NCBI GenBank assembly: GCA_964607015.1
Contig: CAZSHN010000002.1
Location: forward strand, 1 to 56,388
DNA: 56,388 nt
Direction: 5' to 3'
Source: an uncultured Candidatus Saccharibacteria bacterium
Lineage (GTDB): Bacteria > Patescibacteriota > Minisyncoccia > Minisyncoccales > JAGGXC01
Under the pieces are notes generated by a model, which did no database searches, was not told the origin of the DNA, and saw only the letters and a list, made by a program, of their open reading frames with translations. Shown one piece after another: positions 2,612 through 37,242 of the stretch (positions are counted from its first letter, which is position 1; each line of letters starts with the position of its first letter). The translations under genes and the position numbers were made by a program.

Positions 2612-3127
2612 TCACTCAGGCAAAACAGCAAGGGTATTATTGAATCGGTTAATATAGTTAAATAAACCTATTACAGAAACCAATTCAACAATTTGAGCAT
2701 CAGACAATTTTTCTCTCAATCTCTCAAACGTCTCCGGATCATCAACGTTGGCATTATCAGTCACATCTTTAACTAGCTTCAAAATGTCCTCTTCTTCTTG
2801 AGATAAATTCTTCATCTCTTTTATATTCTCTATTTCTTCTTCGTCTGCCCCAAACTTAACCATCATTTTACTGGTAACATCCACACAAAAGGGACACTTA
2901 AGAGCATTGGAGACGGTATAAGCCATTTTCCATTTTAACTTATTCTCTATCTCGCCTTCTCCCATAATTGATTTAAATAATTCTGTAAATTCTTTTAGTA
3001 TTTCGGGCCTATTAGCCATTACTTTTGCCCATTCTGGAACAGACCCAGTATCTTTTTCAAATTTTTCATAAACAGGTAAAGCCCTATCGTCAACATCTTC
3101 TTTTTTTATAGAAGGAACTAAAGCCAT
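2612..3127 (-). CDS. Carboxymuconolactone decarboxylase / AhpD-like family protein
   Basis: 171 aa, all-helical. CPFC (CxxC) motif in the context ALKCPFCVDV, typical of the AhpD-core domain. Confidence 0.7.
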   Translation of the reverse strand: MALVPSIKKEDVDDRALPVYEKFEKDTGSVPEWAKVMANRPEILKEFTELFKSIMGEGEIENKLKWKMAYTVSNALKCPFCVDVTSKMMVKFGADEEEIENIKEMKNLSQEEEDILKLVKDVTDNANVDDPETFERLREKLSDAQIVELVSVIGLFNYINRFNNTLAVLPE

Positions 3128-3240
3128 ATGTTTTTATTTGTTAATTTAATATTAATTTAAAACCTTTTCTTCTTTTTTGTGCTAATTTATTTTAACATAA
3201 AAAACCGTATTATCTTAAAATAATACGGATATTAAATATT

Positions 3241-3621
3241 TTACATATTTTTGGTAAGCTTCCTAAGAGAAGTTATTCTCTTTTCAATATTTTCTTTCTG
3301 CTGCAACAAAGAAATCTCTAGATCGTTAACAAGAAAATCCTTGCTAATCGATTTTGGTCTAAAATAAACATTGTGAGGCCTTCCTCTTCCGTCTTTATCA
3401 GAAGTTACTCGAAGCAAACCCTTTTTCACTATTTTTTTCGCCGCTTCTGATACCTGAGGCTGACTCATTTTCATTTCTTTCTCAATTTGAGCCGATGATC
3501 CTCTTTCGTTATAAAGGAAATAAGCAATTACCTTTGCCTCCATCCTTTTATACCCTATTCTAGCTATTAATCCTACAACGTCCTCTTTTTTCGAAAAACT
3601 CTTTTTCTTATTACTTCCCAA
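3241..3621 (-). CDS. Winged-helix transcriptional regulator (MarR/TrmB-like)
   Basis: 126 aa with a TTG start in the track frame. The segment SSAQIEKEMKMSQPQVSEAAKKIVKKGLL followed by GRGRPHNVY looks like an HTH plus wing. Confidence 0.55.
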   Translation of the reverse strand: MGSNKKKSFSKKEDVVGLIARIGYKRMEAKVIAYFLYNERGSSAQIEKEMKMSQPQVSEAAKKIVKKGLLRVTSDKDGRGRPHNVYFRPKSISKDFLVNDLEISLLQQKENIEKRITSLRKLTKNM

Positions 3622-3676
3622 AATATATCACCTTTTTAAAGTTCTGTTAATTTTCTAACCAATAAACCAAGGAATG

Positions 3677-3805
3677 TCAAATAAAATGAGACGCTGAACA
3701 CGCCTCTTTTTCTTCTATAAATTCTTCTTCAATTTCTGGACGATCAAGCATTGCAATTCTACCTGCCCTTTTAATCAAATGTTTTGCTATCATTTTCCTA
3801 AACAT
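3677..3805 (-). CDS. Possible 42-aa small protein (MFRKMIAKHLIKRAGRIAMLDRPEIEEEFIEEKEACSASHFI)
   Basis: Hand-translated and not in the ORF track. GGGAGTGG SD-like box 4 nt upstream of the ATG. Lies between the HIT gene and the regulator. Confidence 0.25.
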   Translation of the reverse strand: MFRKMIAKHLIKRAGRIAMLDRPEIEEEFIEEKEACSASHFI

Positions 3806-3896
3806 CTTACCACTCCCTATTTACAATGTTCTATAATAATATTAATATTTTAAACTTTAATTTTCAAGTAAATCTTAATTAATGAACTAACTTTAT

Positions 3897-4364
3897 TTAA
3901 TTTTCTGATTCTTCTGCCAAAATATGAAAATGAAGATAATTTACTGTTTGATAAGAAGGACCATTTGTATAGACTTTGTATTCCCTGAGACCTGCCTCTC
4001 TAATAATTTCACCAATCACCGCATAAGAATCAGCAAGATATTCTTTATCTTCCTGAGTAAGGTCAGCTATATCTTTTATATCTTTCTTAGGAATTATTAC
4101 ATAATGAATAGGAGCTCTATGAATAGGAGAATCTATAGCTATTGTCTTATCTGTTTCTTTTACAATTGAAGGAATTAATTCTGGAGATTTCTGAGCAACA
4201 ACAGATCCGATTAATCCCAATAATTCATTTGACTCTAGACAAGTTTCATCGCAATCATCAAATCTCAAAAAAGACCTTGGTTGAGTGTCTCTAAAAATAT
4301 ATCCTCCAATTATTATTCCAACAAAAAGAATAAACAATGAAATAACAATCTTTTTAATTTTCAT
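3897..4364 (-). CDS. HIT-family nucleotide hydrolase/transferase with N-terminal membrane anchor
   Basis: 155 aa. N-terminal TM segment (IVISLFILFVGIIIGGYIF). C-terminal histidine-triad region NYLHFHIL, in which the first His of HxHxHxx is Tyr. Confidence 0.7.
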   Translation of the reverse strand: MKIKKIVISLFILFVGIIIGGYIFRDTQPRSFLRFDDCDETCLESNELLGLIGSVVAQKSPELIPSIVKETDKTIAIDSPIHRAPIHYVIIPKKDIKDIADLTQEDKEYLADSYAVIGEIIREAGLREYKVYTNGPSYQTVNYLHFHILAEESEN

Positions 4365-4725
4365 GCCTCAATCTTAATTTTAAATTATATATTTCATTTT
4401 ATCAGAAAATAAATATTAAATAAAAAAAGACCCTACTAAAACCATCTCTTTACTCAATATGTTTCTAATTAGAAATCTGTCAAAATAGTAAATATTCAAA
4501 CTTTATGTTTTGTTATAAATCAATATTTTGCAATTTCAATTAACGAAAAAAGCAAGTCAAGTTCATTGCAGATGAAGTACTTTCAACAAGAATATTTTTC
4601 CACAAAATTTATCCTGCTAAAACAGATAATACAGTTAAAAAACGTTTCCAAATCATGCCAATTCTTACTTAGTCTTTGTATATTTCTATGATCCGATTTT
4701 AAATTCTTAACAGATTGCTCTAAAA

Positions 4726-6995: not shown

Positions 6996-7129
6996 AATTA
7001 ATTATTAATTAATTTCACATTTTTATTTATAACCTTTTGTATTTTTGCAGGATAACAAATACTGTTGACTATGTAAAATTATACACCCAGAAGAAGAAAA
7101 ATATTTAATAATTTATTTTTATTATATAA

Positions 7130-7157
7130 TTGACTTTTATGATTAATATGTTATAAT
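7130..7157 (+). promoter_or_regulatory. Sigma70-type promoter for ORF 7230..7631
   Basis: TTGACT (7130-7135), 16-nt spacer ending TGt, TATAAT (7152-7157). Followed by an 8-bp 5'-UTR hairpin ATCCTAAG/CTTAGGAT (7188-7207) and an AAGGAG SD. Confidence 0.55.
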
Positions 7158-7229
7158 GAAGAAGTAAAAAATCTATAATTTTTTACCATCCTAAGTAATC
7201 TTAGGATAAAAAAATAAGGAGTGTTGAAA

Positions 7230-7631
7230 ATGGAAGAAACCGATAAGAAAGTTAAAGAAAATATAGATCTAGAAAAAGAAAAAGAAGAGATAAGCAGATT
7301 ATTAAATACTCGTGCTTACCAGGTTGAAAAAATAAGAAAAGAACTATCGGAGCCTAAGGGCTTTCTTCAGAAAAAATGTCCAAAATGCGGAGAAAAACTA
7401 TGGGGTGGTCGTTTAAACTCGTACTATAAATATTTTATATGTATTCATTGTTTTTACGACTATTCTAAACTAATAAAATTTTCTCTCCCGAACTTATTAA
7501 AGAACTTCATTCACCCTGTTTACAGCAAAGAATTTCTGGATTTTTTGTTCAAGGAAGAAAGAGTGGTAAACATAAAAGAAATCTGTCACAGACTTACAGA
7601 GATTAAAAGAAAAGAAAAATCTTCAATATAG
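7230..7631 (+). CDS. Hypothetical protein with CPKCGEK...CIHC zinc-ribbon motif
   Basis: The track ORF starts at GTG 7221. I prefer ATG 7230 because AAGGAG lies 8 nt upstream. No family recognised. Confidence 0.5.
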   Translation: MEETDKKVKENIDLEKEKEEISRLLNTRAYQVEKIRKELSEPKGFLQKKCPKCGEKLWGGRLNSYYKYFICIHCFYDYSKLIKFSLPNLLKNFIHPVYSKEFLDFLFKEERVVNIKEICHRLTEIKRKEKSSI

Positions 7632-7686
7632 GCTTTTGATTTATTCTAATCTTAAGCCTCTTTTTTTTAAACTTATAGAAAGTTTT

Positions 7687-7717
7687 AATAAAAAGCACAC
7701 CAGCAGTCCCGGCGCGC
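7687..7717 (-). terminator. Orphan GC-rich hairpin + T-tract on the minus strand, related to the 6242..6272 terminator
   Basis: Minus strand reads GCGCGCCGG-GACTG-CTGGTGTGC (9 pairs including G.U) followed by TTTTTATT. There is no minus-strand ORF upstream of it. Confidence 0.45.
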
Positions 7718-7749
7718 GAAAATCTCTAAGCGAGGAAGAGTGTACTTGC

Positions 7750-7775
7750 GTGCTGCGATACTAGGATTCGAACCT
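7750..7775 (-). repeat. Fragment copy of the tRNA-Gln 3' end (T-arm + 3' acceptor strand), att-like direct repeat
   Basis: gtgctgcgatactaggattcgaacct here versus gtgctgcgggactaggattcgaacct at 9736..9761, 24/26 identical and in the same orientation. No D or anticodon arm adjoins it. Confidence 0.7.
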
Positions 7776-7817
7776 TATTCTGTTCGCACTACTGATATAG
7801 GATATTTTTAGGTTCGT

Positions 7818-7845
7818 TTGCATTTAAAAAAATACATGCTATATT
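7818..7845 (+). promoter_or_regulatory. Sigma70-type promoter for the GNAT-ASCH gene
   Basis: TTGCAT, 16-nt spacer ending TGc, TATATT. The roughly 100-nt leader holds two hairpins (CAGGAA/TTCCTG and TATCTCT/AGAGATA) and an AAGGAG SD. Confidence 0.5.
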
Positions 7846-7951
7846 AATCTAGATTCAGGAAGTCTTGAATTCCTGTAAACAGTTCTTTTAAAATTAATGA
7901 GTTACACATATCTCTCTTAGAGATAGTAGCTCGGCAAAGGAGAAGAAAAAA

Positions 7952-9304
7952 ATGGAAAATAAGAAAGCAATAATTAGAAAAGCTCGAAAAGGAGACTTTG
8001 AATGGATTAAAAACCTGATGCAGGACGCTTTAGAACCTTACTATGGAGGAGATCATAAAGCACACGCAAAACGTATATTCAATGCTCATATTAAAGGAGG
8101 CATTGATCGAATTGGATTTTTCTCTTTTGAACAACGCATGTTTGTCGCAGAAGTTAATAACCAGATCGCTGGAATGATCCATTTAGTTGGAAAACGTCAA
8201 TCAACATACAAGATTAGCCCACTCATCGTTTCACCTAAATTTCGAGGATGCCTAGGGATAGGAAGCAGACTTTTGTATTTTGCTGAAAAATATGCAAGAA
8301 AAAACCAGGCACGCCAACTATATTGTACTGTAGCAAAGCAAAATATTGCATCCCTGCAATTTTTCCTTCGCAAGGGGTTCATTCAAGCAGGAAGCTCTGA
8401 AAGCCATTACAAAAATGGCATAACAGAAACAATGCTCTACAAGCCATTGTACGGAATAAGTAAAATAACATCCTTAGATCAACTTCATGTATCTGTTCTG
8501 CCATTTGACGAAAAAAACACTGGCATAAAAGAGCAAATTGAAAGATTGTTGCTGGGAAAACTTCAGAATTCTTTTGAAGGAATTACCGATGAATGGGTTC
8601 GTGCCCTTTTTGACGGTTACAGTCGGAGAAACAGTAAAGACATTAACACAAAATACAAGCTTATTTACGTAGCCACAGATAGTACAGGAAGAGTCATTGG
8701 TATAGTCGGGGCAACACCGAAAAAAGGAAGTCCAATTAAGATAATGCCTTTTATTGCAACAAATATAGTTGCCTTCGAAGCACTATTAATCGATCTTCCC
8801 TATCAATTGGCCCGATACGGTCATAAACTTTACATTCATCTTAATCCGAGTTCAGACGAAGTTGTTTCCCTCCAAAGACTTGGATGGAAATTAGATGCAG
8901 TAATGCCTGCGGCATATCATCAAAATATTATCACTCAACAATGGAGCTTGGATGTAGGAGAAGGTACCATGAGAACAATGAGAGTAAAAAGAAGGTTTTT
9001 TAACCTAATAAAGTCAGAAGCAAAAACGCTGGAAGTTCGTGTTCGATACAAAAACATTGACCGAATTCAAGCAGGAGAAATTATTTCCTTGGTCACGCAT
9101 AACGAGAGTATGAAAATAAAAGTAAAAAATGTTCGACACTATCACAGTTTCGAACAAATGCTCCAAAGAGAACCATGGGAAAAAATAGCCCCAGAATTAA
9201 ATTCCAAAGAAGAGGTTTTTTCTTTGTTAAAACAAATATATCCTTACCGCAAAGAAAAACTTGGTGTTGTAGTTTTCGAGTTTTCTCGTCCTAGCAACAT
9301 TTAA
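7952..9304 (+). CDS. Three-domain protein: GNAT N-acetyltransferase + degenerate second GNAT-like domain + C-terminal ASCH (PUA-like) domain
   Basis: 450 aa. Residues 1-165 hold GNAT motif A (IVSPKFRGCLGIGSRLLYFAEKYA). Residues ~175-335 are GNAT-like without the acetyl-CoA motif. Residues ~340-450 show the ASCH pattern (TLEVRV...IQAGEIISL...HYHSFEQML...SKEE...IYP...GVVVFEF). Confidence 0.7.
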   Translation: MENKKAIIRKARKGDFEWIKNLMQDALEPYYGGDHKAHAKRIFNAHIKGGIDRIGFFSFEQRMFVAEVNNQIAGMIHLVGKRQSTYKISPLIVSPKFRGCLGIGSRLLYFAEKYARKNQARQLYCTVAKQNIASLQFFLRKGFIQAGSSESHYKNGITETMLYKPLYGISKITSLDQLHVSVLPFDEKNTGIKEQIERLLLGKLQNSFEGITDEWVRALFDGYSRRNSKDINTKYKLIYVATDSTGRVIGIVGATPKKGSPIKIMPFIATNIVAFEALLIDLPYQLARYGHKLYIHLNPSSDEVVSLQRLGWKLDAVMPAAYHQNIITQQWSLDVGEGTMRTMRVKRRFFNLIKSEAKTLEVRVRYKNIDRIQAGEIISLVTHNESMKIKVKNVRHYHSFEQMLQREPWEKIAPELNSKEEVFSLLKQIYPYRKEKLGVVVFEFSRPSNI

Positions 9305-9317
9305 GATTGCCTCAAAT

Positions 9318-9352
9318 GTCCAGTGAGCTCATATAGCAACTGGACTTTTTTT
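9318..9352 (+). terminator. Rho-independent terminator of the GNAT-ASCH gene
   Basis: GTCCAGT-14 nt-ACTGGAC followed by TTTTTTTAT. It overlaps the stop codon of the convergent ASCH gene. Confidence 0.65.
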
Positions 9353-9692
9353 ATTTAACTAACTCTATTTTTATACCAACAGCATTATATTTCTGCTGTT
9401 CTTCTTTTGAGTAAAATTTATTAACTTCTTTAATTAGTTCTTCTTTTGAGTTTCCGCCAAATTTTTCCGGAGGAAAATCAGAAAAAAGTTCTTCAAAAGA
9501 ACTGTAGAGATAAATAGCCTTTACTTTCGTTAATATTTTTTGAGAAGAATCGTCTTTGTAAGTAAATTCAATTTGGTCACCAACACTAATCCTTTGACGT
9601 TTTTCGTCATACAACCTAGACTCAATATTTTTATTACTACTAACAACCTTCCTAAAAGGAATGGCAGCTAATTTCATTTGGTGTTTTGTCAT
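9351..9692 (-). CDS. Stand-alone ASCH-domain protein
   Basis: 113 aa. Pattern MKLAAIPFRKV...NIESRLYDEKRQRISVGDQIEF...YSSFEELF...SKEE...FYSKEEQQKYNAVGIKIEL. Same subfamily pattern as the C-terminus of 7952..9304. Confidence 0.7.
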   Translation of the reverse strand: MTKHQMKLAAIPFRKVVSSNKNIESRLYDEKRQRISVGDQIEFTYKDDSSQKILTKVKAIYLYSSFEELFSDFPPEKFGGNSKEELIKEVNKFYSKEEQQKYNAVGIKIELVK

Positions 9693-9738
9693 ATTTTTAA
9701 TTAAAAAATTAATTCCTCTCAGTTTCTCAAACCGTGTG

Positions 9739-9809
9739 CTGCGGGACTAGGATTCGAACCTAGATAGACAGCTCCAAAAGCTGTTGTCCTACCATTAGAC
9801 GATCCCGCA
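9739..9809 (-). tRNA. tRNA-Gln (anticodon UUG)
   Basis: Hand-folded cloverleaf: acceptor TGCGGGA/TCCCGCA (U1-A72), U8, D-stem GTCT/GGAC with GG in the loop, anticodon stem ACAGC/GCTGT, loop TTTTGGA, T-arm CTAGG-TTCGAAT-CCTAG, discriminator G. CCA is not encoded. Confidence 0.85.
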
Positions 9810-9815
9810 AGACTA

Positions 9816-11288
9816 TTATCTATTTAAATACATATTAAAGAAATTGTAAAGTTCCTTTGAATCTTTGTTTCCTTCAAAAGAATCAGGAGATAAAGGAGTT
9901 ATTAAAAAAGCACTTTGTTCTTTTATGCTAACTCCTCCATGACAACTAAAATTAGAAGAAAAACTAACAACTTTATCTTTTACTTTATCATTAACAACAA
10001 TCAAATCACCAGAAAACTCCATCTTAATTAAATCAACAAGCATCTTTAGAACAAAGTCTCTGTCAAAAACACCCGCTAAAGGATCTTTTCTTTCTATTTT
10101 TTCTTTAGAATCATTTAAAATTATTCTTCCTTCTTTTCCTAAAATAAGTATTCCTTCTTTAGAATTAACTAATAACAATTTAGTTACTTCGTGATTTAAA
10201 AGAAAATAAGCAAAACCAGGATATTTTTCATTAATATCTTCAAGAAGTAGCTTTCTACTAGAATCGTTAAAATAGATGTGGCCAATATTTGATAAAGGAA
10301 CAAAGTTTATCTTTTTATCCGAAAAATCCTTTTCGTCTCCAAGGTAAGCCTTCATTAAATTACGAAAAGGTTTACTCATCTGATCAAGCCAAGGAATTTT
10401 AACTATTGATTCCTCTATTTGATCTATGAAAGATTGATCTTGAAACTGGTCTCCTCTTCCAATTTCAGTTTCCAGCTTCTCTTCAAGAACAAAATCAAAT
10501 CTCTTTCCAAAATTATCTTCAAAAGAGGTAGATCTTTTTTGACCATGATCAGACATAACAAAGAAATCATAATCTATATCTTTACTTTCTTTGAGAAGAT
10601 TATAAATATCCTCTACCTTTTTATCTATTTTCCTAATTACTTTTTTTGTAAGGAAGCTGTTCTTTCCAAACATATGAGACCTTCTATCATAACCACTAAA
10701 ATTAACAAAAATATAAGGAGTCCCCTTTTCTATTTCTTTTTTAACAAGCAAGAAAGTAGCTTTTCTCAAGACACAATCTACAAAAAAACCACTAAAGAAA
10801 TTTACTCGATGAAGCCTGGTAACCAAAGAAAGAATCAAATCTATTAATAAGACAAAAGGGCTAAGAAAAATATAAAAAGCTACTTCTAGCTTAGAAAAAT
10901 TATCAATAACATTAGCAAGGTCAAAATTAGAAACAGAAAAGTTATCCTTTGCTCCTCCGGAAAATATAGAACCAATTGTCACTCCTTTTTTAAAAACACC
11001 ATTCTGCCATTTTTTCTCCATTCTCTTCGCTTCTTTCTTATTAAACAAACTTCTAAATCTTCTATTCTGTTTGTCGTACCAAGTAAGACCGGGAACATCA
11101 ACAGATTCTTTATGCATTAATCCAGCTTGAAGATTTAAGGCAGGAAGCCCACAATAAATTCTCTCTAATTCTGCCTCTTTATTTTTAACTAGCTTATTCA
11201 AAAAAGGAGCCCTTCCTTTTTCAATTGCTCCTTTTATTCCCTGATAAGACAATCCGTCTATTTCTATGATTATAAAGCCTTTTTTCAT
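9816..11288 (-). CDS. Alkaline-phosphatase-superfamily protein (type I phosphodiesterase / nucleotide pyrophosphatase-like)
   Basis: 490 aa. N-terminal IIEIDGLSY metal-site motif and FVMSDHGQ motif. An internal hydrophobic segment (FYIFLSPFVLLIDLILSLV) is unusual. Confidence 0.55.
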   Translation of the reverse strand: MKKGFIIIEIDGLSYQGIKGAIEKGRAPFLNKLVKNKEAELERIYCGLPALNLQAGLMHKESVDVPGLTWYDKQNRRFRSLFNKKEAKRMEKKWQNGVFKKGVTIGSIFSGGAKDNFSVSNFDLANVIDNFSKLEVAFYIFLSPFVLLIDLILSLVTRLHRVNFFSGFFVDCVLRKATFLLVKKEIEKGTPYIFVNFSGYDRRSHMFGKNSFLTKKVIRKIDKKVEDIYNLLKESKDIDYDFFVMSDHGQKRSTSFEDNFGKRFDFVLEEKLETEIGRGDQFQDQSFIDQIEESIVKIPWLDQMSKPFRNLMKAYLGDEKDFSDKKINFVPLSNIGHIYFNDSSRKLLLEDINEKYPGFAYFLLNHEVTKLLLVNSKEGILILGKEGRIILNDSKEKIERKDPLAGVFDRDFVLKMLVDLIKMEFSGDLIVVNDKVKDKVVSFSSNFSCHGGVSIKEQSAFLITPLSPDSFEGNKDSKELYNFFNMYLNR

Positions 11289-11294
11289 TTTAAC

Positions 11295-12416
11295 TTATTC
11301 GCTATCCATAATATCTACCGCCTGCACCAACGCAAGCTCTAAGGGTAGCTGGGAAATAGAAGAATACCTTGTTTTTGCTTCTGCCTCTAAAAACAAGTTT
11401 AAAATATTGCGAATCTGTTTTTCGGAAAAAGACTTAATCTGATTTTCAAGTCTTTCTTTTTCTTCCTTAGTTAAGCTCTCAACAAAAGGATCATCAAAAT
11501 CAGAACTAATTTTCAAAAGCAATGCTTGTCTTAAATAGCTTATTAAAGCGGATAAAAACTCTTGAGGATCATAACCGGCACCGAAAGTTTTATTCAAGAA
11601 CTCAAGAGCTCCTTTATTATTTTTATCAACGATAAAATCAACAAACTCTCCTACTATTTCTACTTCAACTGCTCCCAAGAGACCTCTAATATCCTCTGTT
11701 TTTATTTCTTTCCCATTGCCAGAAAAAGTTAACACTTGATCTAAAAATCCTTCTGCATCTCTTATTGATCCTTCAGAATTAAGAGCAATTAAATTAAGAG
11801 CCTTCTCTTCTATTTTAATTCCTTCTTTCTTAACAATGAATTTCATCTTCTTAATAATCTCTGGAGCTCTTAATTTCCTGAAATCAAATCTTTGGCAGCG
11901 AGAAACAATAGTTCCTATCATCTTATGGGCTTCAGTAGTAGCAAGAATGAAGATAGCATGAGCTGGAGGTTCTTCTAATGTCTTCAGCAAAGCATTAGCC
12001 GCATCTTTAGATAATTGATGGCATTCGTCTATAATAAAAACCTTGTATTTTAATTTACTTGGAGAAAAACGAATACCACTTTTAAGATCTCTTATCTCGT
12101 CAATTCCTCGATGAGACGCAGCATCAATTTCAATCAAATCTATTGCTCTTCCTTTCTCAATTTCCAAACAAGAGGAGCACTTATTACATGGTTCAAATTC
12201 TCCTTTCTTTTTATTTTCACAATTAACTGCCTTAGCTAACAAACGAGCAATAGTAGTCTTTCCTGTTCCTCTTGGACCAGAAAACAAATAAGCATGAGAA
12301 ACCATCTCTTCAGAAAGAGCGTTGGTTAAAGTTTTAACAACATGATCTTGCCCAACTACTTCAGAGAATTTAGTTGGACGATATTTTCTATATAATACTA
12401 AGTTTTCTTTTTCCAT
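11295..12416 (-). CDS. dnaX: DNA polymerase III subunit gamma/tau
   Basis: YRPTKFSEVVGQ, GPRGTGKTT Walker A, a CxxCxxC zinc module, and IIDECHQLS. Start moved to the internal ATG (MEKENLVLYRKYRP) because the 24 upstream track residues look non-coding. Confidence 0.9.
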   Translation of the reverse strand: MEKENLVLYRKYRPTKFSEVVGQDHVVKTLTNALSEEMVSHAYLFSGPRGTGKTTIARLLAKAVNCENKKKGEFEPCNKCSSCLEIEKGRAIDLIEIDAASHRGIDEIRDLKSGIRFSPSKLKYKVFIIDECHQLSKDAANALLKTLEEPPAHAIFILATTEAHKMIGTIVSRCQRFDFRKLRAPEIIKKMKFIVKKEGIKIEEKALNLIALNSEGSIRDAEGFLDQVLTFSGNGKEIKTEDIRGLLGAVEVEIVGEFVDFIVDKNNKGALEFLNKTFGAGYDPQEFLSALISYLRQALLLKISSDFDDPFVESLTKEEKERLENQIKSFSEKQIRNILNLFLEAEAKTRYSSISQLPLELALVQAVDIMDSE

Positions 12417-12505
12417 ATTTAAATATTTTAACATAGCATAAGACAACTTGAAACAGTTGACATTGTAGAATAATGACTTATTATTCAACCGAGGAAAGAT
12501 TAACG

Positions 12506-12766
12506 ATGAGCTTTGAAAAAGAGATAATAGAAGGAAGAAAAGGACAAAAGATAGAAATAAGAGGAAGAGAAGTAAAAGAAATAATAATCAGGGATTGCAA
12601 CAAAACCAGAATATTCATATCAGATAATAACAATCTAGAAAGCGTTCATATTAAAAACTCTTACCTCAGAAACCTAACCTTAGCCCTTTCAAAATCAGAA
12701 ATAAAGATAGAGAATACAAAGATAAAAGATGCCTTTATTGTAATAGAAAACAAAAAGAACCCATAA
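12506..12766 (+). CDS. Hypothetical 86-aa protein
   Basis: The internal ATG is preceded by GAGGAAAG. A hairpin terminator spans the stop codon. No family recognised. Confidence 0.4.
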   Translation: MSFEKEIIEGRKGQKIEIRGREVKEIIIRDCNKTRIFISDNNNLESVHIKNSYLRNLTLALSKSEIKIENTKIKDAFIVIENKKNP

Positions 12767-12785
12767 AAATGGGTTCATTTTTTTT
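12757..12785. terminator. Bidirectional hairpin terminator between convergent genes
   Basis: GAACCCA-TAAAAA-TGGGTTC flanked by A-run and T-run on both sides. Confidence 0.7.
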
Positions 12786-12799
12786 ACAAAAACCTATTA

Positions 12800-13462
12800 C
12801 TATTTCTTGAAGACAAGAAACTTGTAACCAACAAAATTCCAAACAAAGGCAGCAAAGGCAGCTATAACGATTGAGATATTCCCCCAAATCTTAACTGTTG
12901 TTCCGAACTGAGGACCAATATATTTTGATACAAAGGTAGCAACTCCTACATTGATTGCAAGCCCAAGCAGAGTAACCAAATAAAGTTTTCCGAATTCTTT
13001 TGTCCTGGACTCAGAATCTCTTTTGTTGAAAGTCCAATACTTGTTCCAGAAATAAGAATTTACAGCTCCGGCACTAAAAGAAACAGCCTTTATAGCAGCA
13101 AAAGCTAAAGCTCCAATAGTAATTCCTTTAATAAAGGCTTCATCTTGATTTGCAAACAAAACAGGCAAAGCAGAAGGCAATAAAATATAAAACAATAAAT
13201 TGAATATTCCCAAATCAACTAAAGTATTCAGAACTCCTGCAAGAAAGCATCTTGCTATCTGCAAAAGAACTGGCATCTTACGAGACATGACAGAAGCAAC
13301 AAAAATCATTCCAATAGCACCGATTGGAAGAACAACAAACAGTAAAATAGGATAATCTCCAACAATAGGTAGTTTTAGCCCAATAAAACTTAAAATAAAA
13401 AAACCTATTAAAGCAGAGATTAACCCAATAGTTACAGAACCTAAAATATCACTTTTCCTCAT
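12800..13462 (-). CDS. GtrA-family membrane protein with extra N-terminal TM helices
   Basis: 220 aa, polytopic. GtrA-like signature FLAGVLNTLVDLGIFNLLF ... FVWNFVGYKFLVFKK at the C-terminus. Confidence 0.65.
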   Translation of the reverse strand: MRKSDILGSVTIGLISALIGFFILSFIGLKLPIVGDYPILLFVVLPIGAIGMIFVASVMSRKMPVLLQIARCFLAGVLNTLVDLGIFNLLFYILLPSALPVLFANQDEAFIKGITIGALAFAAIKAVSFSAGAVNSYFWNKYWTFNKRDSESRTKEFGKLYLVTLLGLAINVGVATFVSKYIGPQFGTTVKIWGNISIVIAAFAAFVWNFVGYKFLVFKK

Positions 13463-13564
13463 ATTTTTAATAATAAATTATTTTTTTAATATTACTCATT
13501 ATATCATAAATATATTTAAAAATAAGGTGTGAAAAACTAAAAGAATGTGATAAAATAAAAATCG

Positions 13565-14977
13565 ATGATAAAAGTATACAATACCCTATCAAAAGAAAAA
13601 GAAGCCTTAAAACCTCTTAAAGACAAAGAGATCAATCTTTTTGTTTGCGGTCCTACTGTTTATGACTTCTCTCATATCGGTCATGCTAGAACTTATATTA
13701 TCTTTGATGTAATCGTAAATTACCTCAAAAGCCAAGGTTTCAAACTTTTTTACCTTCAAAATATAACAGACATTGATGACAAGATTATAAAAAGAGCAAA
13801 AGAAAAAAACAAAGAATGGAAAGAGATCGCTAAAAAGTTTGAACTAGAATATAAGAAAGACATGAAAGAGCTAAGAATAGACAGCGTAGACAAATACGCT
13901 AAAGCAACTGACTATATCCAAGCAATAGAAAGCCAGGTGAAAAGATTAATGGAAAAAGGATTTGCTTACAAATTAAATGATGGAATTTATTATGATATAA
14001 GCAAATTCAAAGAATACGGAAAACTATCAAAAAGAAAAGCAGAAAAATCAGAAGATGCAATCTCAAGGATTGATAAAAACAAAAATAAAAGAAACAAAGG
14101 AGATTTTTGTCTCTGGAAATTCTCAAAACCAAACGAACCTAGCTGGAAAAGTAATCTTGGCGAAGGAAGACCTGGCTGGCATATAGAAGATACTGCAATT
14201 ACTGAAAAAGAATTTGGTTTTCAATACGATATTCACGGAGGAGCCCGAGATCTAATCTTCCCTCACCATGAAGCAGAAATAAGTCAGATGGAAGCTTTGT
14301 CAGGCAAAAAACCAATGGCAAAATACTGGCTGCATACAGGTTTCTTAAGAGTTGAAGGAAGAAAGATGTCTAAGTCTTTAGGAAACTTTATTACCATAAA
14401 AGAATTCTTAAAAGAAAACTCTCCGAACCTTTTAAGATTTCTTATTATTAAAAGCCATTACCGTTCTCCAATAAATTATAGTGAAGCAAAGTTAATCAAA
14501 ACAGAAAAAGAGCTTGAAAGAATAGAAGAATTTGTTGCCAGATTAAAAGAAATTAAAAACAACAAAAGCAGCAAATCAAAGCTCGCAGAGAAAACAAGAA
14601 AGGAATTTCAAAAAGCAATGAATGATGATTTCAATACTCCGGAAGCAATCGCCTCAATCTTTAATCTAGTTAATAAAGGAAACAAGTTAATAGACCAAGA
14701 AAAAATAAGCAAAAAAGAAGCAGAAGAAATAATTAATCTCCTAAAAGAAATCGATAAAATATTCAAAATTGATCTAACGAAAACAGACGATAGGATTACC
14801 TTAAAAAATAAAGTTCAAATATCAAAGAAATTAAACGCACTTATCAATAAAAGAGAAAAGCACAGAAAAAACAAAGACTGGGAAAAGGCTGACAAAGCAA
14901 GAAAAGAAATAGAAAAACTAGGATACAGAATAAAAGACACTAAGGAGGGACCAAAAATAAAGAAATTTAGCAAATAA
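13565..14977 (+). CDS. cysS: Cysteine--tRNA ligase
   Basis: HIGHARTY (HIGH) and KMSKSLGN (KMSKS) class I motifs, plus the CGPTVYD N-terminus. Confidence 0.95.
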   Translation: MIKVYNTLSKEKEALKPLKDKEINLFVCGPTVYDFSHIGHARTYIIFDVIVNYLKSQGFKLFYLQNITDIDDKIIKRAKEKNKEWKEIAKKFELEYKKDMKELRIDSVDKYAKATDYIQAIESQVKRLMEKGFAYKLNDGIYYDISKFKEYGKLSKRKAEKSEDAISRIDKNKNKRNKGDFCLWKFSKPNEPSWKSNLGEGRPGWHIEDTAITEKEFGFQYDIHGGARDLIFPHHEAEISQMEALSGKKPMAKYWLHTGFLRVEGRKMSKSLGNFITIKEFLKENSPNLLRFLIIKSHYRSPINYSEAKLIKTEKELERIEEFVARLKEIKNNKSSKSKLAEKTRKEFQKAMNDDFNTPEAIASIFNLVNKGNKLIDQEKISKKEAEEIINLLKEIDKIFKIDLTKTDDRITLKNKVQISKKLNALINKREKHRKNKDWEKADKARKEIEKLGYRIKDTKEGPKIKKFSK

Positions 14978-15024
14978 AATCCCTTGTAAAGCAAAATAAA
15001 TTTTGCTAAATTCAAGATAGAATA

Positions 15025-16383
15025 ATGGCTAAAAACAAAAACAACAATTTCAACTCTTCAAACAAACTTCCTCCTCAAGATAAAGAGGCCGAAAAGTCAT
15101 TAATCGGCTCTTTAATGCTTAGCGAAAAAGCAATCTATAAGGTGATTGACTTTTTAACTCCCGATGATTTTTATAGAGACTCTAATAGAAAAATCTATCA
15201 AGCAATGGTAGATTTATTCGAAAAGCAGGAAGCAATCGATGTATTGTCGGTAACTACCCGCTTAAAAGAAATGAAGGAGCTGGAAAATATAGGAGGATCT
15301 ACTTATTTATCAGAATGTATCAATTCAGTTCCTACCGCTTCTCATGTTTTAAACTATGCAAAAATAATTCAGAAGAAGAGAATATTAAGAAATTTAATTG
15401 ATGCCTCTTATGATATTGGAGAATTGGGATACGATGAAAGAGAAGATATTGATGTTACTTTAGATAAAGCAGAAAAAAGAATTTTCAGCGTAGCTCAACA
15501 AAGTCTAACTCAATCATTTTCCGCAGTAAAAGATAATTTAGTAGAAGCTTTTGAAAGAATAGAAAGTCTCTCAGAAAACAGAGATGCGGTAAGAGGAGCT
15601 TCTACTGGATTTGTTGATTTAGACAAGATAATATCTGGTTTCCAGAAATCGAACTTCATAATTTTGGCAGCAAGACCAAGTCTTGGTAAAAGCTCCCTTG
15701 CTTTAGATTTTGCAAGAAATATTGCTACAAAAGAAAATACACCTGTAGGTATTTTCAGCTTAGAAATGTCTACCGATCAAATAGTAGACAGGTTAATTGC
15801 TAGCGAAGCAAACATTGATCTTTGGAAGATAAGAACTGGATATCTTTCAGATTCTGGAGAAAATAATGATTTTGTTAAAATAAGGCACGCTTTAGATACT
15901 TTAAATAATGCTCCTATTTACATAGATGATGCTGCTAACGTAAATGTGCTCCAGATGAGAGCAATGGCTAGAAGGCTACAGGCAGAAAAAGGATTAGGAT
16001 TAATCATTATCGATTATCTCCAGCTTATTGAGCCAAAAACTTCTTTTGACTCAATTGTTCGTCAGATAACAGAAATATCAAGAGCATTAAAGGGATTAGC
16101 GAAAGAATTAAATATTCCTGTCTTAGCATTGTCTCAGTTGTCACGTGCAGTAGAACAAAGAACTCCTCAGGTACCAAGATTGTCTGACCTTAGAGAATCA
16201 GGTGCTTTAGAGCAAGACGCAGACGTTGTTATGTTCATTCACCGAGAAGATCGTTACAGACCCGAAACTTCAAGAAAAAATATTGCTGATATCATTGTAG
16301 CGAAACACCGTAACGGTCCAATCGGGAAAGTAGAACTTTTCTTTAATGAAAGATTAGCTTCTTTTAGAAACTTAGAGAAATAA
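15025..16383 (+). CDS. dnaB: Replicative DNA helicase
   Basis: PPQDKEAEKSLIGSLM N-terminus, ARPSLGKSS Walker A, IIIDYLQL Walker B, AKHRNGP. Confidence 0.95.
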   Translation: MAKNKNNNFNSSNKLPPQDKEAEKSLIGSLMLSEKAIYKVIDFLTPDDFYRDSNRKIYQAMVDLFEKQEAIDVLSVTTRLKEMKELENIGGSTYLSECINSVPTASHVLNYAKIIQKKRILRNLIDASYDIGELGYDEREDIDVTLDKAEKRIFSVAQQSLTQSFSAVKDNLVEAFERIESLSENRDAVRGASTGFVDLDKIISGFQKSNFIILAARPSLGKSSLALDFARNIATKENTPVGIFSLEMSTDQIVDRLIASEANIDLWKIRTGYLSDSGENNDFVKIRHALDTLNNAPIYIDDAANVNVLQMRAMARRLQAEKGLGLIIIDYLQLIEPKTSFDSIVRQITEISRALKGLAKELNIPVLALSQLSRAVEQRTPQVPRLSDLRESGALEQDADVVMFIHREDRYRPETSRKNIADIIVAKHRNGPIGKVELFFNERLASFRNLEK

Positions 16384-33585: not shown

Positions 33586-34125
33586 TTAAATTTGTTTTTC
33601 CTTTTTCTCGGTAGTAACCCTTCCTCCCTGCCATTGTCCTCGATATAAATTAGAATCTCCTTTTACTTGAAAAAACATGAGATGCAATACTCGAGCACCA
33701 AGCTCTAATTTAAATTCTTCATTGCTAAAATTATAAATTCCCATTGTTAATCCTCCGCAATATCCAGGAGCTACCTGACCACCGAAGATATAGACTCCTG
33801 ACCTGAAAAGAGTAGAACGAGGAGTAAACATCGCCAAAAGATCTTTTGGTATATTAACCTTCTCGATCGTTTTCATCAGATAATAAGTATTAGGATTGAG
33901 AGAAACTTCTCTTCTTTCTTCTGGATCAAACTTCGCAATTAATTCAGTATGAGGAGTATCTCTTTCTTCAACTCCTAAAAATCCTTCTCCTCTCACTTCG
34001 TACAACTCCCCTATTCTAATATCAAAACCTGTTCCTTCAGGATGAGTTCTTTCTCTTTCACAAAGATTTTCTACTAAATTCTTTTCCTTAACAAGTTTTA
34101 ATAATTCATTTACGCCTAAAATCAT
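33586..34125 (-). CDS. dCTP deaminase / dUTPase-superfamily protein (second Dcd paralogue)
   Basis: 179 aa. GFDIRIGELY and GGQVAPGYCGGLTMGIYNFSNEEFKLELGARVLHLMF, a beta-barrel trimeric dUTPase-fold pattern. Overlaps the folD 3' end by 20 nt. Confidence 0.7.
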   Translation of the reverse strand: MILGVNELLKLVKEKNLVENLCERERTHPEGTGFDIRIGELYEVRGEGFLGVEERDTPHTELIAKFDPEERREVSLNPNTYYLMKTIEKVNIPKDLLAMFTPRSTLFRSGVYIFGGQVAPGYCGGLTMGIYNFSNEEFKLELGARVLHLMFFQVKGDSNLYRGQWQGGRVTTEKKEKQI

Positions 34126-34954
34126 TTCTTGCTGCTAAATAAACATTTTTTAAAAGATAAGCAACGGTCAAAGGGCCAATCCCTCCTGGAACAGGAGTGA
34201 TAAAAGATGCCTTCCCTTTTACGCTTTCCTTGTCTACGTCTCCCACTATTCCATTCTTCATAAATCTAATGCCGGCATCAATTAAAACACTTCCTTTTTT
34301 AATCATATATCCTTTAATAAAGCGAGGCCTACCACAAACAGAAATAACAATATCAGCTGAACTAATTTTGGGCTTAATCTTAGAAATAGCTTTCTTGTCG
34401 GCCAAAACATAATCTGAATCTATTCCTTTCCTCTTGAAAAAATTCTCTATTGTTTTTCCAAAAACATCTGAGTTGCAAACAGTTACAATCTTTTTGTCAT
34501 CGAAATCCTCTACTACCTGCTCCATTGAACGTAAAACTGCTAAAGGCAAAACAGGCAGGAAATAAGGGTTATTGCTTTTAAGTAAATTTCTATTAACTTC
34601 GTGAAATCCATCTACATCTTTTTTTGGATCAACAGAAGAAATCACCTTTTTTGTATTAATTCTTTCTGGAAGAGGAAGTTGAACAATAATACCATCTACT
34701 AAAACATCTTCATTAAGTTCTCTTATTTTGTCAATGATTTCATATTCATTTGCCTTTTCTGGAAAATTATAACAGAAGATTTTCATTCCTATTTTGTAAG
34801 CAGCTCTCTTTTTATTTCTAATATATAAATCCACATCAGGATTATTCCCTACTTTGATTATTGCCAATGTTGGCGAAACATCTTTTTTCCCTAACTTCTT
34901 TTTAATATCACTAAGTATTTCCTCTGCTACTCTGTTTCCATTAAAAATTATCAT
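34106..34954 (-). CDS. folD: Bifunctional methylenetetrahydrofolate dehydrogenase / methenyl-THF cyclohydrolase
   Basis: DGIIVQLPLP, DVDGFH and TPVPGGIGPLTVAYLLKN motifs. Confidence 0.9.
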   Translation of the reverse strand: MIIFNGNRVAEEILSDIKKKLGKKDVSPTLAIIKVGNNPDVDLYIRNKKRAAYKIGMKIFCYNFPEKANEYEIIDKIRELNEDVLVDGIIVQLPLPERINTKKVISSVDPKKDVDGFHEVNRNLLKSNNPYFLPVLPLAVLRSMEQVVEDFDDKKIVTVCNSDVFGKTIENFFKRKGIDSDYVLADKKAISKIKPKISSADIVISVCGRPRFIKGYMIKKGSVLIDAGIRFMKNGIVGDVDKESVKGKASFITPVPGGIGPLTVAYLLKNVYLAARNDFRRK

Positions 34955-35027
34955 AAAATAAACAAATTTTAAAAATTAAATCTTCTGTTGTTTTATTATA
35001 TTGTAAATTGCCAAAGCTGACAATTTA

Positions 35028-35498
35028 TTAATTATTGTTTTCAGTTCTTCTAATGCGTCCCCATCTTACCTTGTTCCAAGAATATTCATGAAAATAATAT
35101 TCAACAATATTAAGTAAAGCATCAGCAATAACTATCCCAGAAGATATAAAGAAAACTTGGTCGCTGAAATAATGAATAATAAAAAACAAGTATAGGCTGG
35201 CAAGAACCCTCCAGCTAAAAGATTTCGCCAACATTCTTTTCCTTCTTTCTTCAAACCTTCCATCTATAAATTTTCTTCCCCAGTCAGTCCAATCCCAGAT
35301 CCTTTCATGACAATAATAAAGAATAGTATTAGAAACAACATCTACTATGCTCAATCCAGAAGCCAACATCATTTCTCCGGTAAAAATATAAACGGTAAAC
35401 CAAAGAGAAACAGTTCCAACGACTCTCCAGGTAATCGCCTTGGCAGCACTCCTCTCTAATGACACTCTTCCCGGATAATGGGAATAAGAAAAATCCAT
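35028..35498 (-). CDS. DUF2061-type membrane protein (tandem duplicated module)
   Basis: Two repeats of the AKAITWRVVGT / AKSFSWRVLAS motif, each followed by TM helices and HERIWD / HEYSWN. The ATG overlaps the glyA stop (TAATG). Confidence 0.6.
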   Translation of the reverse strand: MDFSYSHYPGRVSLERSAAKAITWRVVGTVSLWFTVYIFTGEMMLASGLSIVDVVSNTILYYCHERIWDWTDWGRKFIDGRFEERRKRMLAKSFSWRVLASLYLFFIIHYFSDQVFFISSGIVIADALLNIVEYYFHEYSWNKVRWGRIRRTENNN

Positions 35499-36736: not shown

Positions 36737-36767
36737 ATTCTAAAGTATCAATATCTATAAAAAATAT

Positions 36768-37241: not shown

Positions 37242-37242
37242 T

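What the first reader, a model, noticed from the sequence alone, without database searches (positions are those of the whole stretch)
7750..9809. Partial duplication of the tRNA-Gln 3' end brackets a 2-kb two-gene islet (att-like direct repeats)
The 26 nt at 9736-9761 cover the T-arm 3' half, the 3' acceptor strand and 4 nt beyond the discriminator of tRNA-Gln. They recur in the same orientation at 7750-7775 with 24/26 identities; only GG->AT in the acceptor strand differs. The copy at 7750 has no D or anticodon arm, so it is a fragment and not a second tRNA. Duplicated tRNA 3' ends are the classic attL/attR scar of site-specific island insertion. The bracketed segment carries only the GNAT-GNAT-ASCH gene, the ASCH gene, and their own promoter and terminator. 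No integrase lies between the repeats, so this would be a decayed or trans-mobilised islet. By eye, the 7952-9304 gene uses CGN arginine codons more often than nearby genes. I did not quantify this.
Basis: partly seen in the sequence, partly recalled or inferred. Interest (0 to 1): 0.65.

Follow-up and report, generated by a model that had tools for sequence, protein, structure and literature searches.

The report
Integrase-less gene islet in tRNA-Gln
A 2-kb, two-gene segment sits between an intact tRNA-Gln gene and a displaced 26-base copy of that tRNA's 3' end in an uncultured Patescibacteria (CPR) genome; this is the usual scar of DNA insertion into a tRNA gene, here without any integrase, so it is a small, fairly ordinary example of a known kind.

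Summary
tRNA-Gln(UUG) lies at 9739-9809 (minus strand). Its last 26 nt (9736-9761) recur at 7750-7775 with 24/26 identity, in the same orientation and downstream of the tRNA. No shuffle gave a second copy.

The fragment is followed by a 25-nt trailer and a rho-independent terminator (7717-7695). An X4/X5 metagenome contig carries an intact tRNA-Gln, identical to this one, directly followed by a similar trailer and terminator, which looks like an empty site.

The closest long relative (82% nt) has tRNA-Gln, a terminator, then the HIT gene. The 95%-identical relative keeps the left flank up to 7746 but lacks the islet.

No integrase, recombinase or transposase is found in the scanned ORFs of the 56-kb window. 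No part of the module is found in IMG/VR viral contigs.

The cargo is a tandem-GNAT/ASCH protein plus a small ASCH protein. This gene pair is strongly conserved across Patescibacteria (62-74% aa), and its location varies; it lies next to tRNA-Asn or tRNA-Leu in two other genomes. Its CGN-rich, GC-rich composition is real (p = 2e-6) but is a family trait, so it does not show recent import.

Best reading: a relic attL/attR-type insertion into the T-arm/3' end of tRNA-Gln. The recombinase either acted in trans or was lost.

It is a new member of a known kind, of modest interest.

The parts
9739..9809 (-). Intact tRNA-Gln(UUG). Its 5' end is 6 nt from the stop codon of the phosphodiesterase-family gene.
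   Evidence: ARAGORN; Rfam RF00005, 64.3 bits, full length. The same phosphodiesterase/tRNA-Gln junction is present in L003 and L028.
9736..9761 (-). Right copy of the 26-nt repeat (attR-like core): the 3' part of the tRNA from the T-stem to 3 nt past the discriminator.
   Evidence: Homology of L003 and of the X5 266-nt contig to the window starts at 9737 and 9736 respectively.
7750..7775 (-). Displaced 3' fragment of tRNA-Gln (attL-like core). It is 24/26 identical to the window tRNA and 24/25 to the tRNA-Gln of relative L003.
   Evidence: No tRNA call here. No extension of similarity into 7776-7850.
7725..7749 (-). Trailer that follows the fragment, i.e. the former 3' flank of a tRNA-Gln gene.
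   Evidence: X4 and X5 contigs align to 7703-7775 and run on into a complete tRNA-Gln. L009 carries an L003-like trailer at the same place.
7695..7717 (-). Rho-independent terminator (9-bp stem, 6 G-C pairs, U-rich tail). It is read as the former terminator of tRNA-Gln, now separated from the tRNA by the islet.
   Evidence: Conserved at 95% in L009-L011.
7776..9735 (.). The islet: 1960 bp between the two repeat copies.
   Evidence: Absent from L003 and L009-L011. Contig depth is about 0 in X4 over 7772-9640 while both flanks are covered. The core 7831-9706 is 84% identical to L019, where it lies beside tRNA-Asn.
7817..7894 (+). Two sigma-70-like promoter candidates for the large gene (TTTGCA-17-TATATT with TG; TTGAAT-18-TAAAAT).
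   Evidence: consensus matches only. An RNA contig 100% identical to 8169-8317 exists in a metatranscriptome.
7900..7931 (+). 5'-UTR hairpin (ATCTCT / AGAGAT core) just upstream of the ribosome-binding site. It is also present in L019 with a different loop.
   Evidence: -10.1 kcal/mol, z = -1.7; weak.
7952..9304 (+). 450-aa protein: N-terminal GNAT acetyltransferase domain, a second GNAT-like domain (about residues 181-334), and a C-terminal ASCH domain (344-445).
   Evidence: Pfam; PDB sequence hits; AlphaFold2 model, pLDDT 82.8; Foldseek hits to tandem-GNAT proteins 2wpw and VipF; 609 homologues.
9318..9352 (+). Terminator hairpin plus U7 between the two convergent genes.
   Evidence: -13.4 kcal/mol, z = -2.3 on the + strand; z = -3.8 on the - strand.
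9351..9692 (-). 113-aa ASCH-domain protein. It starts 46 nt downstream of tRNA-Gln on the same strand, with no terminator or promoter match between them, so it is probably co-transcribed with the tRNA.
   Evidence: Pfam ASCH, 4.6e-10; PDB hits 2z0t and 1s04; no structure in the spacer; no promoter match.

Best explanation
The 26-nt repeat is the scar of a Campbell-type (single-crossover) insertion of a small circular DNA into the 3' part of the tRNA-Gln(UUG) gene, at the T-arm/acceptor 'sublocation'.

The incoming DNA carried the tandem-GNAT/ASCH gene, the small ASCH gene, and a copy of the tRNA's last 26 nt. Recombination within that block left a complete tRNA at 9739-9809, whose 3' end now abuts islet DNA. 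It pushed a 3' end fragment 2 kb downstream (7750-7775), together with the trailer and terminator of a tRNA-Gln gene (7749-7695).

The tRNA stays functional. It has lost its own terminator, and transcription probably now runs on into the ASCH gene.

The recombinase is not in the islet or in the 56-kb window. Either a tyrosine integrase encoded elsewhere acted in trans, or the integrase part of a larger element was later deleted, as in the cis-mobilisable elements (CIMEs) left by ICEs.

Shown: the repeat, its geometry, the absence of the islet from relatives, an apparently unoccupied tRNA-Gln site in other samples, and the lack of an integrase.

Inferred: the circular intermediate, the site-specific enzyme, and co-transcription of the tRNA with ASCH. 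The event may have happened in a donor lineage, with the whole arrangement then brought in by homologous recombination, because sequence identity to the nearest relative already drops at about 7724.
For: (1) The repeat is real and non-random.

(2) Its geometry is the one the Islander algorithm uses to map tDNA islands: a 3' fragment, downstream of the tDNA, in the same orientation, reaching the 3' end, outside any CDS and outside any full tRNA (PMC4383910; sequence). The block starts in the T-stem, which is the commonest class together with anticodon-centred sites.

(3) The duplication has a sharp edge. There is no similarity beyond the 26 nt.

(4) The fragment carries a trailer and a terminator. 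X5's 266-nt contig is 100% identical to 9736-9799 and then continues into sequence aligning to 7703-7749. X4's 151-nt contig shows the same arrangement. Both represent a tRNA-Gln with this trailer and no islet.

(5) L003/L004 (82% nt) align to 9737-15998 and then jump to 3909-4432. There, tRNA-Gln is followed by a terminator and the HIT gene.

(6) L009-L011 (95% nt) align to 7107-7746 and then diverge. At that point they keep only about 6 nt of the tRNA-Gln 3' end plus an L003-like trailer.

(7) The block CysS-GtrA-DnaX-phosphodiesterase-tRNA-Gln is conserved in L003 and L028. L027 has an extra 230-aa gene between the phosphodiesterase gene and tRNA-Gln. The DNA 3' of the tRNA differs in L003, L028 and the window; L027's contig ends at the tRNA.

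(8) An independent assembly (X3, 181-nt contig covering 9666-9846, no differences) spans the right junction.
Against: No integrase, excisionase or other recombinase is present in the islet or among the scanned ORFs of the window.

No excised circle or empty-site joint was seen in the source run, although only contigs could be examined.

The islet is tiny (1960 bp), with only 55 and 29 nt outside the region shared with L019. That leaves no visible remnant of a larger element.

The cargo is a gene pair conserved across Patescibacteria, not typical island cargo. It was not found on IMG/VR viral contigs.

The other breakpoints of the same variable zone (4432/4433, 7107, 9822-9825) carry no tRNA repeats, so non-site-specific rearrangement is also active here.

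The trailer 7725-7749 is only about 60% identical to L009, although the preceding 640 nt are 95% identical. The history is therefore more complex than one clean insertion.

The X4/X5 'empty site' matches the trailer at only about 70-80% and comes from very short contigs.
Confidence: 0.58

Rival explanations
1. Truncated second tRNA copy. The module once lay between two complete tRNA-Gln genes. These could have arisen by integration of a circle carrying a whole tRNA-Gln through homologous recombination, or by a segmental duplication. A later deletion removed the 5' 46 nt of the downstream copy. No site-specific enzyme is needed.
For: No integrase is present. In L015 the same module is bracketed by a partial recent duplication: 137 nt of ASCH at 92% plus a 21-nt perfect repeat. 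This shows that duplication followed by deletion does happen around this gene pair. The fragment is nearer to the L003 allele (24/25) than to the adjacent tRNA, as expected for a second, diverged copy.
Against: It requires a deletion whose end point falls by chance in the T-stem, which is where integrase cores typically begin. No trace of the tRNA body remains next to a 92%-conserved 26-mer. No relative with two tRNA-Gln copies at this locus was seen.
Confidence: 0.2
2. Recombination hot spot without a dedicated element. The 3' side of tRNA-Gln is a plasticity zone where foreign or relocated DNA is exchanged by homologous or homology-facilitated illegitimate recombination, with the conserved tRNA as an anchor. 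The 26-mer is a by-product of one such imprecise event.
For: Relatives differ at several breakpoints that have no repeats: 4432/4433 inside a terminator hairpin, 7107, about 7724, and 9822-9825. L006 and an X5 contig have no tRNA-Gln after the phosphodiesterase gene at all. The tRNA-Gln alleles of the window and L003 differ in 4 of 5 anticodon-stem pairs, which suggests allele replacement.
Against: Double-crossover replacement does not duplicate the anchor. A direct repeat that brackets the insert needs a single crossover with a circle, or a duplication. The repeat geometry passes every Islander configuration test.
Confidence: 0.15
3. The fragment is a functional tRNA-like RNA element, for example a processing signal or small RNA ending at the 7717-7695 terminator. 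On this reading it is maintained by selection and is not a scar.
For: It is followed by a good terminator on the same strand, and 24 of 26 positions are preserved.
Against: The 146-nt minus-strand region folds no better than shuffles (z = 0.12). There is no Rfam match, no minus-strand promoter match in 7776-7900, and no RNA contig over it. The 95% relative L009 has lost all but about 6 nt of it. Half a T-arm and one acceptor strand cannot form a tRNA-like fold alone.
Confidence: 0.04
4. Chance similarity or assembly artefact.
For: None beyond the short length of the repeat.
Against: None of 100 shuffles gave a second copy. The repeat (26 nt) is shorter than the 31-letter words of the Logan index (tool description; an inference, not measured here). 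Depth is uniform at 23x across both junctions. An independent X3 contig spans the right junction.
Confidence: 0.02

Closest known systems
tDNA-integrated genomic islands as defined by Islander (Hudson, Lau & Williams 2015, PMC4383910; Williams 2002 on sublocation preference, cited from my own knowledge)
   Same: There is an intact, regenerated tRNA gene at one end and a displaced 3' tDNA fragment at the other. The fragment is in the same orientation, lies downstream, and starts in the T-stem region. Relatives lack the insert.
   Different: There is no integrase gene, and the islet is 1960 bp, below Islander's 2-kb cut-off and far below the 13.6-kb and 39.9-kb size peaks. It has no phage or conjugation genes. 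Its cargo is a lineage-wide conserved gene pair.
CIMEs (cis-mobilisable elements) and other integrase-less derivatives of ICEs, such as those next to ICESt1/ICESt3 of Streptococcus thermophilus (Pavlovic et al. 2004; own knowledge, not re-read here)
   Same: The element is flanked by attL- and attR-like repeats but has no recombination or transfer genes. It could be mobilised only by an integrase supplied in trans.
   Different: No cognate ICE or integrase is known for this organism. Mobilisation has not been observed. CIMEs are usually several kb and sit beside the parent ICE's site.
ASCH-domain amidohydrolases acting on N4-acetylcytidine (E. coli YqfB, PMC6972931; archaeal ASCH tRNA ac4C 'erasers', bioRxiv 10.64898/2026.02.27.708502)
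   Same: Both islet proteins contain an ASCH domain (Pfam E = 5e-10 and 9e-09). The small protein is the size of YqfB (113 vs 103 aa).
   Different: No catalytic residues were checked and no assay exists. The fusion of ASCH to two GNAT domains is not described in those papers ('GNAT' occurs 0 times in the preprint). Any writer/eraser role is speculation.

Membership tests
tDNA-integrated genomic island (Islander definition) | A full-length tRNA/tmRNA gene plus a fragment of the same gene elsewhere on the replicon | tested here: met
   tRNA-Gln at 9739-9809; 26-nt fragment at 7750-7775, 24/26 identical.
tDNA-integrated genomic island (Islander definition) | Configuration and orientation: a 3' fragment lies downstream of the tDNA on the same strand | tested here: met
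   Both are on the minus strand, and the fragment lies at lower coordinates, i.e. downstream.
tDNA-integrated genomic island (Islander definition) | The fragment is an end fragment, not internal, and lies outside CDS domains and outside another full tRNA | tested here: met
   The fragment reaches 3 nt past the discriminator. It lies in the 7632-7951 intergenic space, and there is no tRNA call there.
tDNA-integrated genomic island (Islander definition) | An integrase (tyrosine recombinase) gene inside the candidate island | tested here: not met
   The island holds only a GNAT/ASCH gene and an ASCH gene. No recombinase Pfam hit was found among the scanned ORFs of the window.
tDNA-integrated genomic island (Islander definition) | Length between 2 and 200 kb | tested here: not met
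   There are 1960 bp between the repeats (1986 bp start to start), just under the cut-off.
tDNA-integrated genomic island (general) | Presence/absence polymorphism: related genomes have the uninterrupted site | tested here: met
   L003/L004 have tRNA-Gln, then a terminator, then HIT. X4/X5 contigs show tRNA-Gln directly followed by a fragment-type trailer. X4 depth is about 0 over the islet. Caveat: the X4/X5 contigs are 151-266 nt long and the trailer match is about 70-80%.
tDNA-integrated genomic island (general) | Excision to a circle, or integrase-dependent recombination of attL x attR | not testable with these tools
   Only contigs, not reads, of the source run were available, and no joint between 7775 and 9762 was seen in them. 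The attP-type pattern is absent from IMG/VR.
CIME-like integrase-less element | att-like repeats flank DNA that has no recombination or transfer genes | tested here: met
CIME-like integrase-less element | A cognate integrase-bearing element uses the same att site in the same or related genomes | tested here: inconclusive
   No integrase was seen 3' of tRNA-Gln in L003, L028 or L009 within the DNA available. Whole genomes were not searchable.
ASCH ac4C amidohydrolases (YqfB-like) | ASCH fold | tested here: met
   Pfam PF04266; PDB hits 2z0t, 1s04 and 1xne.
ASCH ac4C amidohydrolases (YqfB-like) | Catalytic residues and activity on N4-acetylcytidine | not tested
   No residue-level comparison or assay was done.

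The most novel reading that the evidence does not exclude
The tandem-GNAT/ASCH plus ASCH gene pair may itself be a horizontally spreading, tRNA-associated cassette of Patescibacteria. This would explain several observations:
- its 62-74% protein identity across phylum-level lineages;
- its GC content above the surrounding DNA in low-GC hosts and its CGN-rich arginine codons;
- its changing location;
- its position directly 3' of three different tRNA genes (Gln here, Asn in L019, Leu in L015);
- bracketing repeats in two of these three cases.

On this reading it inserts at tRNA 3' ends with the help of a trans-acting recombinase, is co-transcribed with the tRNA, and acts on tRNA, for example as an acetyl-cytidine writer/eraser pair.
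Probability: 0.12. Interest if true: 0.6.

Novelty: new member of a known kind. Interest (0 to 1): 0.33.

Why it matters
Integration scars at tRNA genes are textbook material in cultivated bacteria, but I found few papers describing them for Patescibacteria (CPR), whose small genomes are usually thought poor in mobile elements.

This case gives a nucleotide-precise example. It shows that the 3' side of tRNA-Gln is a gene-content hot spot in one CPR clade. It also flags islands that standard tools such as Islander would discard, because they have no integrase and are shorter than 2 kb.

The cargo may be the more interesting part. It is a very strongly conserved, uncharacterised acetyltransferase/ASCH pair that sits beside tRNA genes in three genomes and may act on RNA.

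Tried and rejected
- A GTDB genome scan with the flanking phosphodiesterase protein found no close relative.
- Exact-protein look-ups showed the window's own contig in only one sample.
- IMG/VR scans found nothing. I tried the 450-aa protein, a 20-sequence profile, and an attL/attP junction pattern.
- The idea that L019 has a tRNA-Asn fragment on the far side of the module was tested and rejected. The best flank match is a 9-mer, and 60 of 300 shuffles score as well. Rfam found nothing in that flank.
- The idea that 7776-7850 is a decayed tRNA body was rejected.
- The structured-RNA reading of the fragment was rejected.
- A search for further tRNA-Gln fragments 3' of the tRNA in L003 and L028 found none.
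- Looking for the islet's left junction in other runs found only X1 and fragments in X6 that stop short of the junction.
- The X5 left-flank motif is in none of the fetched loci, so the genomic position of the 'empty' tRNA-Gln remains unknown.
- Compositional atypicality as proof of import was rejected after the same bias was seen in homologues from other low-GC genomes.
Full report
**1. The observation**

The window is a low-GC (32.5%) Patescibacteria/CPR-type contig. It is the same sequence as Logan contig SRR15425350_1419.

ARAGORN and Rfam place tRNA-Gln(UUG) on the minus strand at 9738/9739-9809. The 26 nt at 9736-9761 recur at 7750-7775 with 24/26 identity; only GG->AT differs. These are the only two matches in 56 kb at up to 3 mismatches, and none of 100 dinucleotide shuffles produced two.

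On the tRNA, the block runs from the last three bases of the 5' T-stem strand, through the T-loop, the 3' T-stem, the acceptor strand and the discriminator, to three bases beyond.

The copy at 7750 is not a tRNA. The 75 nt next to it show no similarity to the rest of the tRNA (279 of 1000 shuffles score as well). The duplication therefore has a sharp edge.

**2. Anatomy**

Reading the minus strand from the conserved side, the order is:
- the DnaX gene and a phosphodiesterase-family gene (9816-11288);
- tRNA-Gln, 6 nt downstream;
- the 113-aa ASCH gene (9692-9351), 46 nt further on, with no hairpin or promoter match in the spacer;
- a hairpin plus U7 terminator at 9318-9352, shared with the convergent 450-aa gene (7952-9304, + strand);
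- that gene's promoter-like sites (7817-7894);
- the tRNA fragment (7775-7750), a 25-nt trailer, and a good rho-independent terminator at 7717-7695.

The terminator directly after the fragment is what one expects if this stretch was once the real 3' end of a tRNA-Gln transcription unit.

The 450-aa protein has a Pfam GNAT domain (8-158) and an ASCH domain (344-445). The middle part has no sequence-family hit. In an AlphaFold2 model (pLDDT 82.8) it has GNAT-like topology, and tandem-GNAT proteins (2wpw, VipF) are among the best Foldseek matches.

**3. Relatives**

Five kinds of relative were recovered.

(a) L003/L004 (82% nt identity; 447-kb ENA contig). Homology to the window runs from 15998 down to 9737, exactly the 3' end of tRNA-Gln, and then jumps to 4432-3909, the HIT gene. 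In L003 the tRNA is followed by a short trailer, a terminator and HIT. Relative to L003 the window has 5.3 kb extra, and the islet is the tRNA-proximal 2 kb of it.

(b) L009/L010/L011 (94-96% nt; ENA ERZ10759773/4 and Logan ERR6290779 = run X4). These share 2617-4432 and 7107-7746 with the window, but not the islet. After the shared terminator they carry an L003-like trailer and only about 6 nt of the tRNA 3' end, then unrelated genes for a serine hydrolase and two methyltransferases. Contig depth in X4 is about 0 over 7772-9640, while both flanks are covered.

(c) Short contigs in X4 (151 nt) and X5 (266 nt). These align to 7703-7775 and then continue with AGATAGACAGCTCCAAAAGCTGTTGTCCTA, which is the body of tRNA-Gln. 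The X5 contig is 100% identical to 9736-9799. This is an intact tRNA-Gln directly followed by a fragment-type trailer and terminator, so it looks like an unoccupied site. The trailer match is only about 70-80% and the contigs are tiny, so this is good evidence but not conclusive.

(d) L028 and L027 (phosphodiesterase protein 44% and 48% identical). L028 and L003 share the block CysS-GtrA-DnaX-phosphodiesterase-tRNA-Gln. L027 has an extra 230-aa gene before the tRNA, and its contig ends there. The genes after the tRNA in L028 differ from those in L003 and the window.

(e) L006 (87% nt) and a 641-nt X5 contig (99% identical to 9825-9928). Neither has a tRNA-Gln after the phosphodiesterase gene.

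The 3' side of tRNA-Gln is thus the edge of a conserved block and the start of a highly variable zone. Some of that zone's breakpoints have no repeats: 4432/4433 inside a terminator hairpin, and 7107.

**4. What the cargo is**

The 450-aa protein has 609 detectable homologues. It is 62-74% identical across many Parcubacteria-type lineages, including Wildermuth-, Andersen-, Jackson-, Moranii- and Paceibacteria. The mean column identity of 20 diverse members is 73%.

In all ten loci with enough flank it is paired with the convergent small ASCH gene. The pair's location varies. The closest copy, L019 (88% aa, 84% nt over window 7831-9706), lies 56 nt 3' of tRNA-Asn(GUU). In L015 the pair lies 3' of tRNA-Leu(CAA). 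In the seven other loci where both genes could be located, no tRNA lies next to the pair; the nearest is a tRNA-Gln(CUG) about 1.7 kb away in L024.

L019 has no bracketing repeat. L015 has a perfect 21-nt direct repeat plus a 137-nt, 92%-identical partial ASCH duplicate.

The pair was not found in IMG/VR.

**5. Composition**

The large gene uses CGN for 17 of 29 arginines, against 19% for all window ORFs (p = 2e-6). Its GC is 0.370 against a gene mean of 0.328 (sd 0.030). The islet's tetranucleotide distance from the window average is in the top 4% of equal-sized windows, and its GC is in the top 10%.

The same gene is also GC-richer than its surroundings in other low-GC hosts: L014 0.428 vs 0.366, L015 0.395 vs 0.332, L025 0.428 vs 0.368. 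It is CGN-rich in most genomes checked. The bias is therefore a property of the family, from slow amelioration, constraint or repeated transfer. It does not date this insertion.

**6. Mechanism**

The geometry is the one that Islander uses to map tDNA islands. [quoted passage not shown]

The candidate passes the tDNA, CDS, internal-fragment, configuration and orientation filters. It fails the integrase filter and, narrowly, the 2-kb length filter.

No recombinase domain was found in the islet or among the scanned ORFs of the 56-kb window.

I therefore read it as a relic, or a trans-dependent attL/attR-bounded islet comparable to a CIME (the CIME comparison is from my own knowledge). My confidence is about 0.58.

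Which side contributed which copy is uncertain. The fragment (acceptor strand TATCGCA) cannot pair well with the present 5' strand TGCGGGA, and it is one base from the L003 allele TCTCGCA. It is therefore either the element's copy, derived from another host, or a mutated resident end.

Identity to L009 falls from 95% to about 60% at about 7724, which is 25 nt before the fragment. The arrangement may therefore have been assembled in another lineage and acquired by homologous recombination.

**7. Rivals**

- A deletion-truncated second tRNA-Gln copy (0.20). The L015 duplication makes this plausible. It is disfavoured by the T-stem end point and the lack of any tRNA-body remnant.
- Generic hot-spot recombination (0.15). 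This explains the other breakpoints but not a bracketing direct repeat.
- A functional tRNA-like RNA (0.04). Against it: z = 0.12, no Rfam hit, and loss in L009.
- Chance or misassembly (0.02).

**8. Verdict**

Insertion at the tRNA 3' end with a displaced fragment is well supported. Integrase involvement is inferred only. 'Foreign composition' is not diagnostic here.

It is a new member of a known kind. The more unusual lead is the cargo: an extremely conserved CPR acetyltransferase/ASCH pair that sits behind tRNA genes in three genomes.

Noticed in passing
L015:5590-5680 and L015:7800-7875: In a Paceibacterota MAG the GNAT/ASCH + ASCH pair is bracketed by two copies of a roughly 65-nt element: GAGACTYGGTCACA, a hairpin whose stem differs between copies but still pairs, then CGCGACCCCTATTCTCGTCTC (21 nt, perfect). 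The left side also carries a 137-nt, 92%-identical partial duplicate of the ASCH gene. Rfam has no match. It could be an att-like or regulatory RNA element.
   Followed up: partly
window 7952-9304 and homologues P0130-P0248: The 450-aa tandem-GNAT/ASCH protein is 62-74% identical across phylum-level CPR lineages, with mean column identity 73% in 20 diverse members. In low-GC genomes it is GC-richer than the surrounding DNA. This points to either extreme constraint or frequent horizontal transfer. Its function is unknown.
   Followed up: partly
window 9693-9809; L019:2079-2207; L015:7727-8041: The small ASCH gene lies directly downstream of a tRNA gene on the same strand in three genomes: tRNA-Gln (46 nt), tRNA-Asn (56 nt) and tRNA-Leu (233 nt). 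In the window there is no terminator between them, so co-transcription with a tRNA seems likely.
   Followed up: partly
window 4425-4440 (compare L003:11575-11600 and L009:1385-1420): A second synteny breakpoint lies inside a terminator hairpin next to the HIT gene. The window keeps only the left arm (…AAAAAAAGACC|). Between 4433 and 7106 the window has LOG, a type IV pilin-like gene and a SurA-like gene, where the 95% relative L009 has an aldose epimerase and a peptide-deformylase fragment.
   Followed up: partly
L006:1764-2103; X5 641-nt contig at window 9825: In an 87% relative and in a 99% relative, the phosphodiesterase gene is not followed by tRNA-Gln. L006 instead has an HTH_23 (homeodomain-like) ORF starting 46 nt after the stop codon.
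   Followed up: no
L027:3188-5611: The DnaX (gamma/tau) gene of a more distant relative carries an intein with a LAGLIDADG homing-endonuclease domain (Pfam Intein_splicing, LAGLIDADG_3). The window's DnaX (11295-12488) is intein-free.
   Followed up: no
window 7900-7931: A 5'-UTR hairpin (ATCTCT…AGAGAT) lies just upstream of the ribosome-binding site of the large gene. It is conserved in L019 with a different loop and may be a translational control element.
   Followed up: no
window 7341-7593 and 8169-8317: Contigs 100% identical to these stretches occur in two salt-lake metatranscriptome runs (X7, X8). The organism, or a near-identical strain, is therefore present and probably transcribing the 136-aa gene and the GNAT gene there.
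   Followed up: partly
window 9739-9809 versus L003:11480-11551: The tRNA-Gln genes of two genomes that are 82% identical in the flanks differ at 4 of 5 anticodon-stem base pairs, all compensatory, and at one acceptor pair. This is unusually divergent and suggests allele replacement.
   Followed up: no
window 33586-38820: A compact folate/thymidylate cluster lies on the minus strand: dCTP deaminase-like x2, FolD, SHMT, DHFR and ThyA. It sits next to ribosomal protein L11 and NusG.
   Followed up: no
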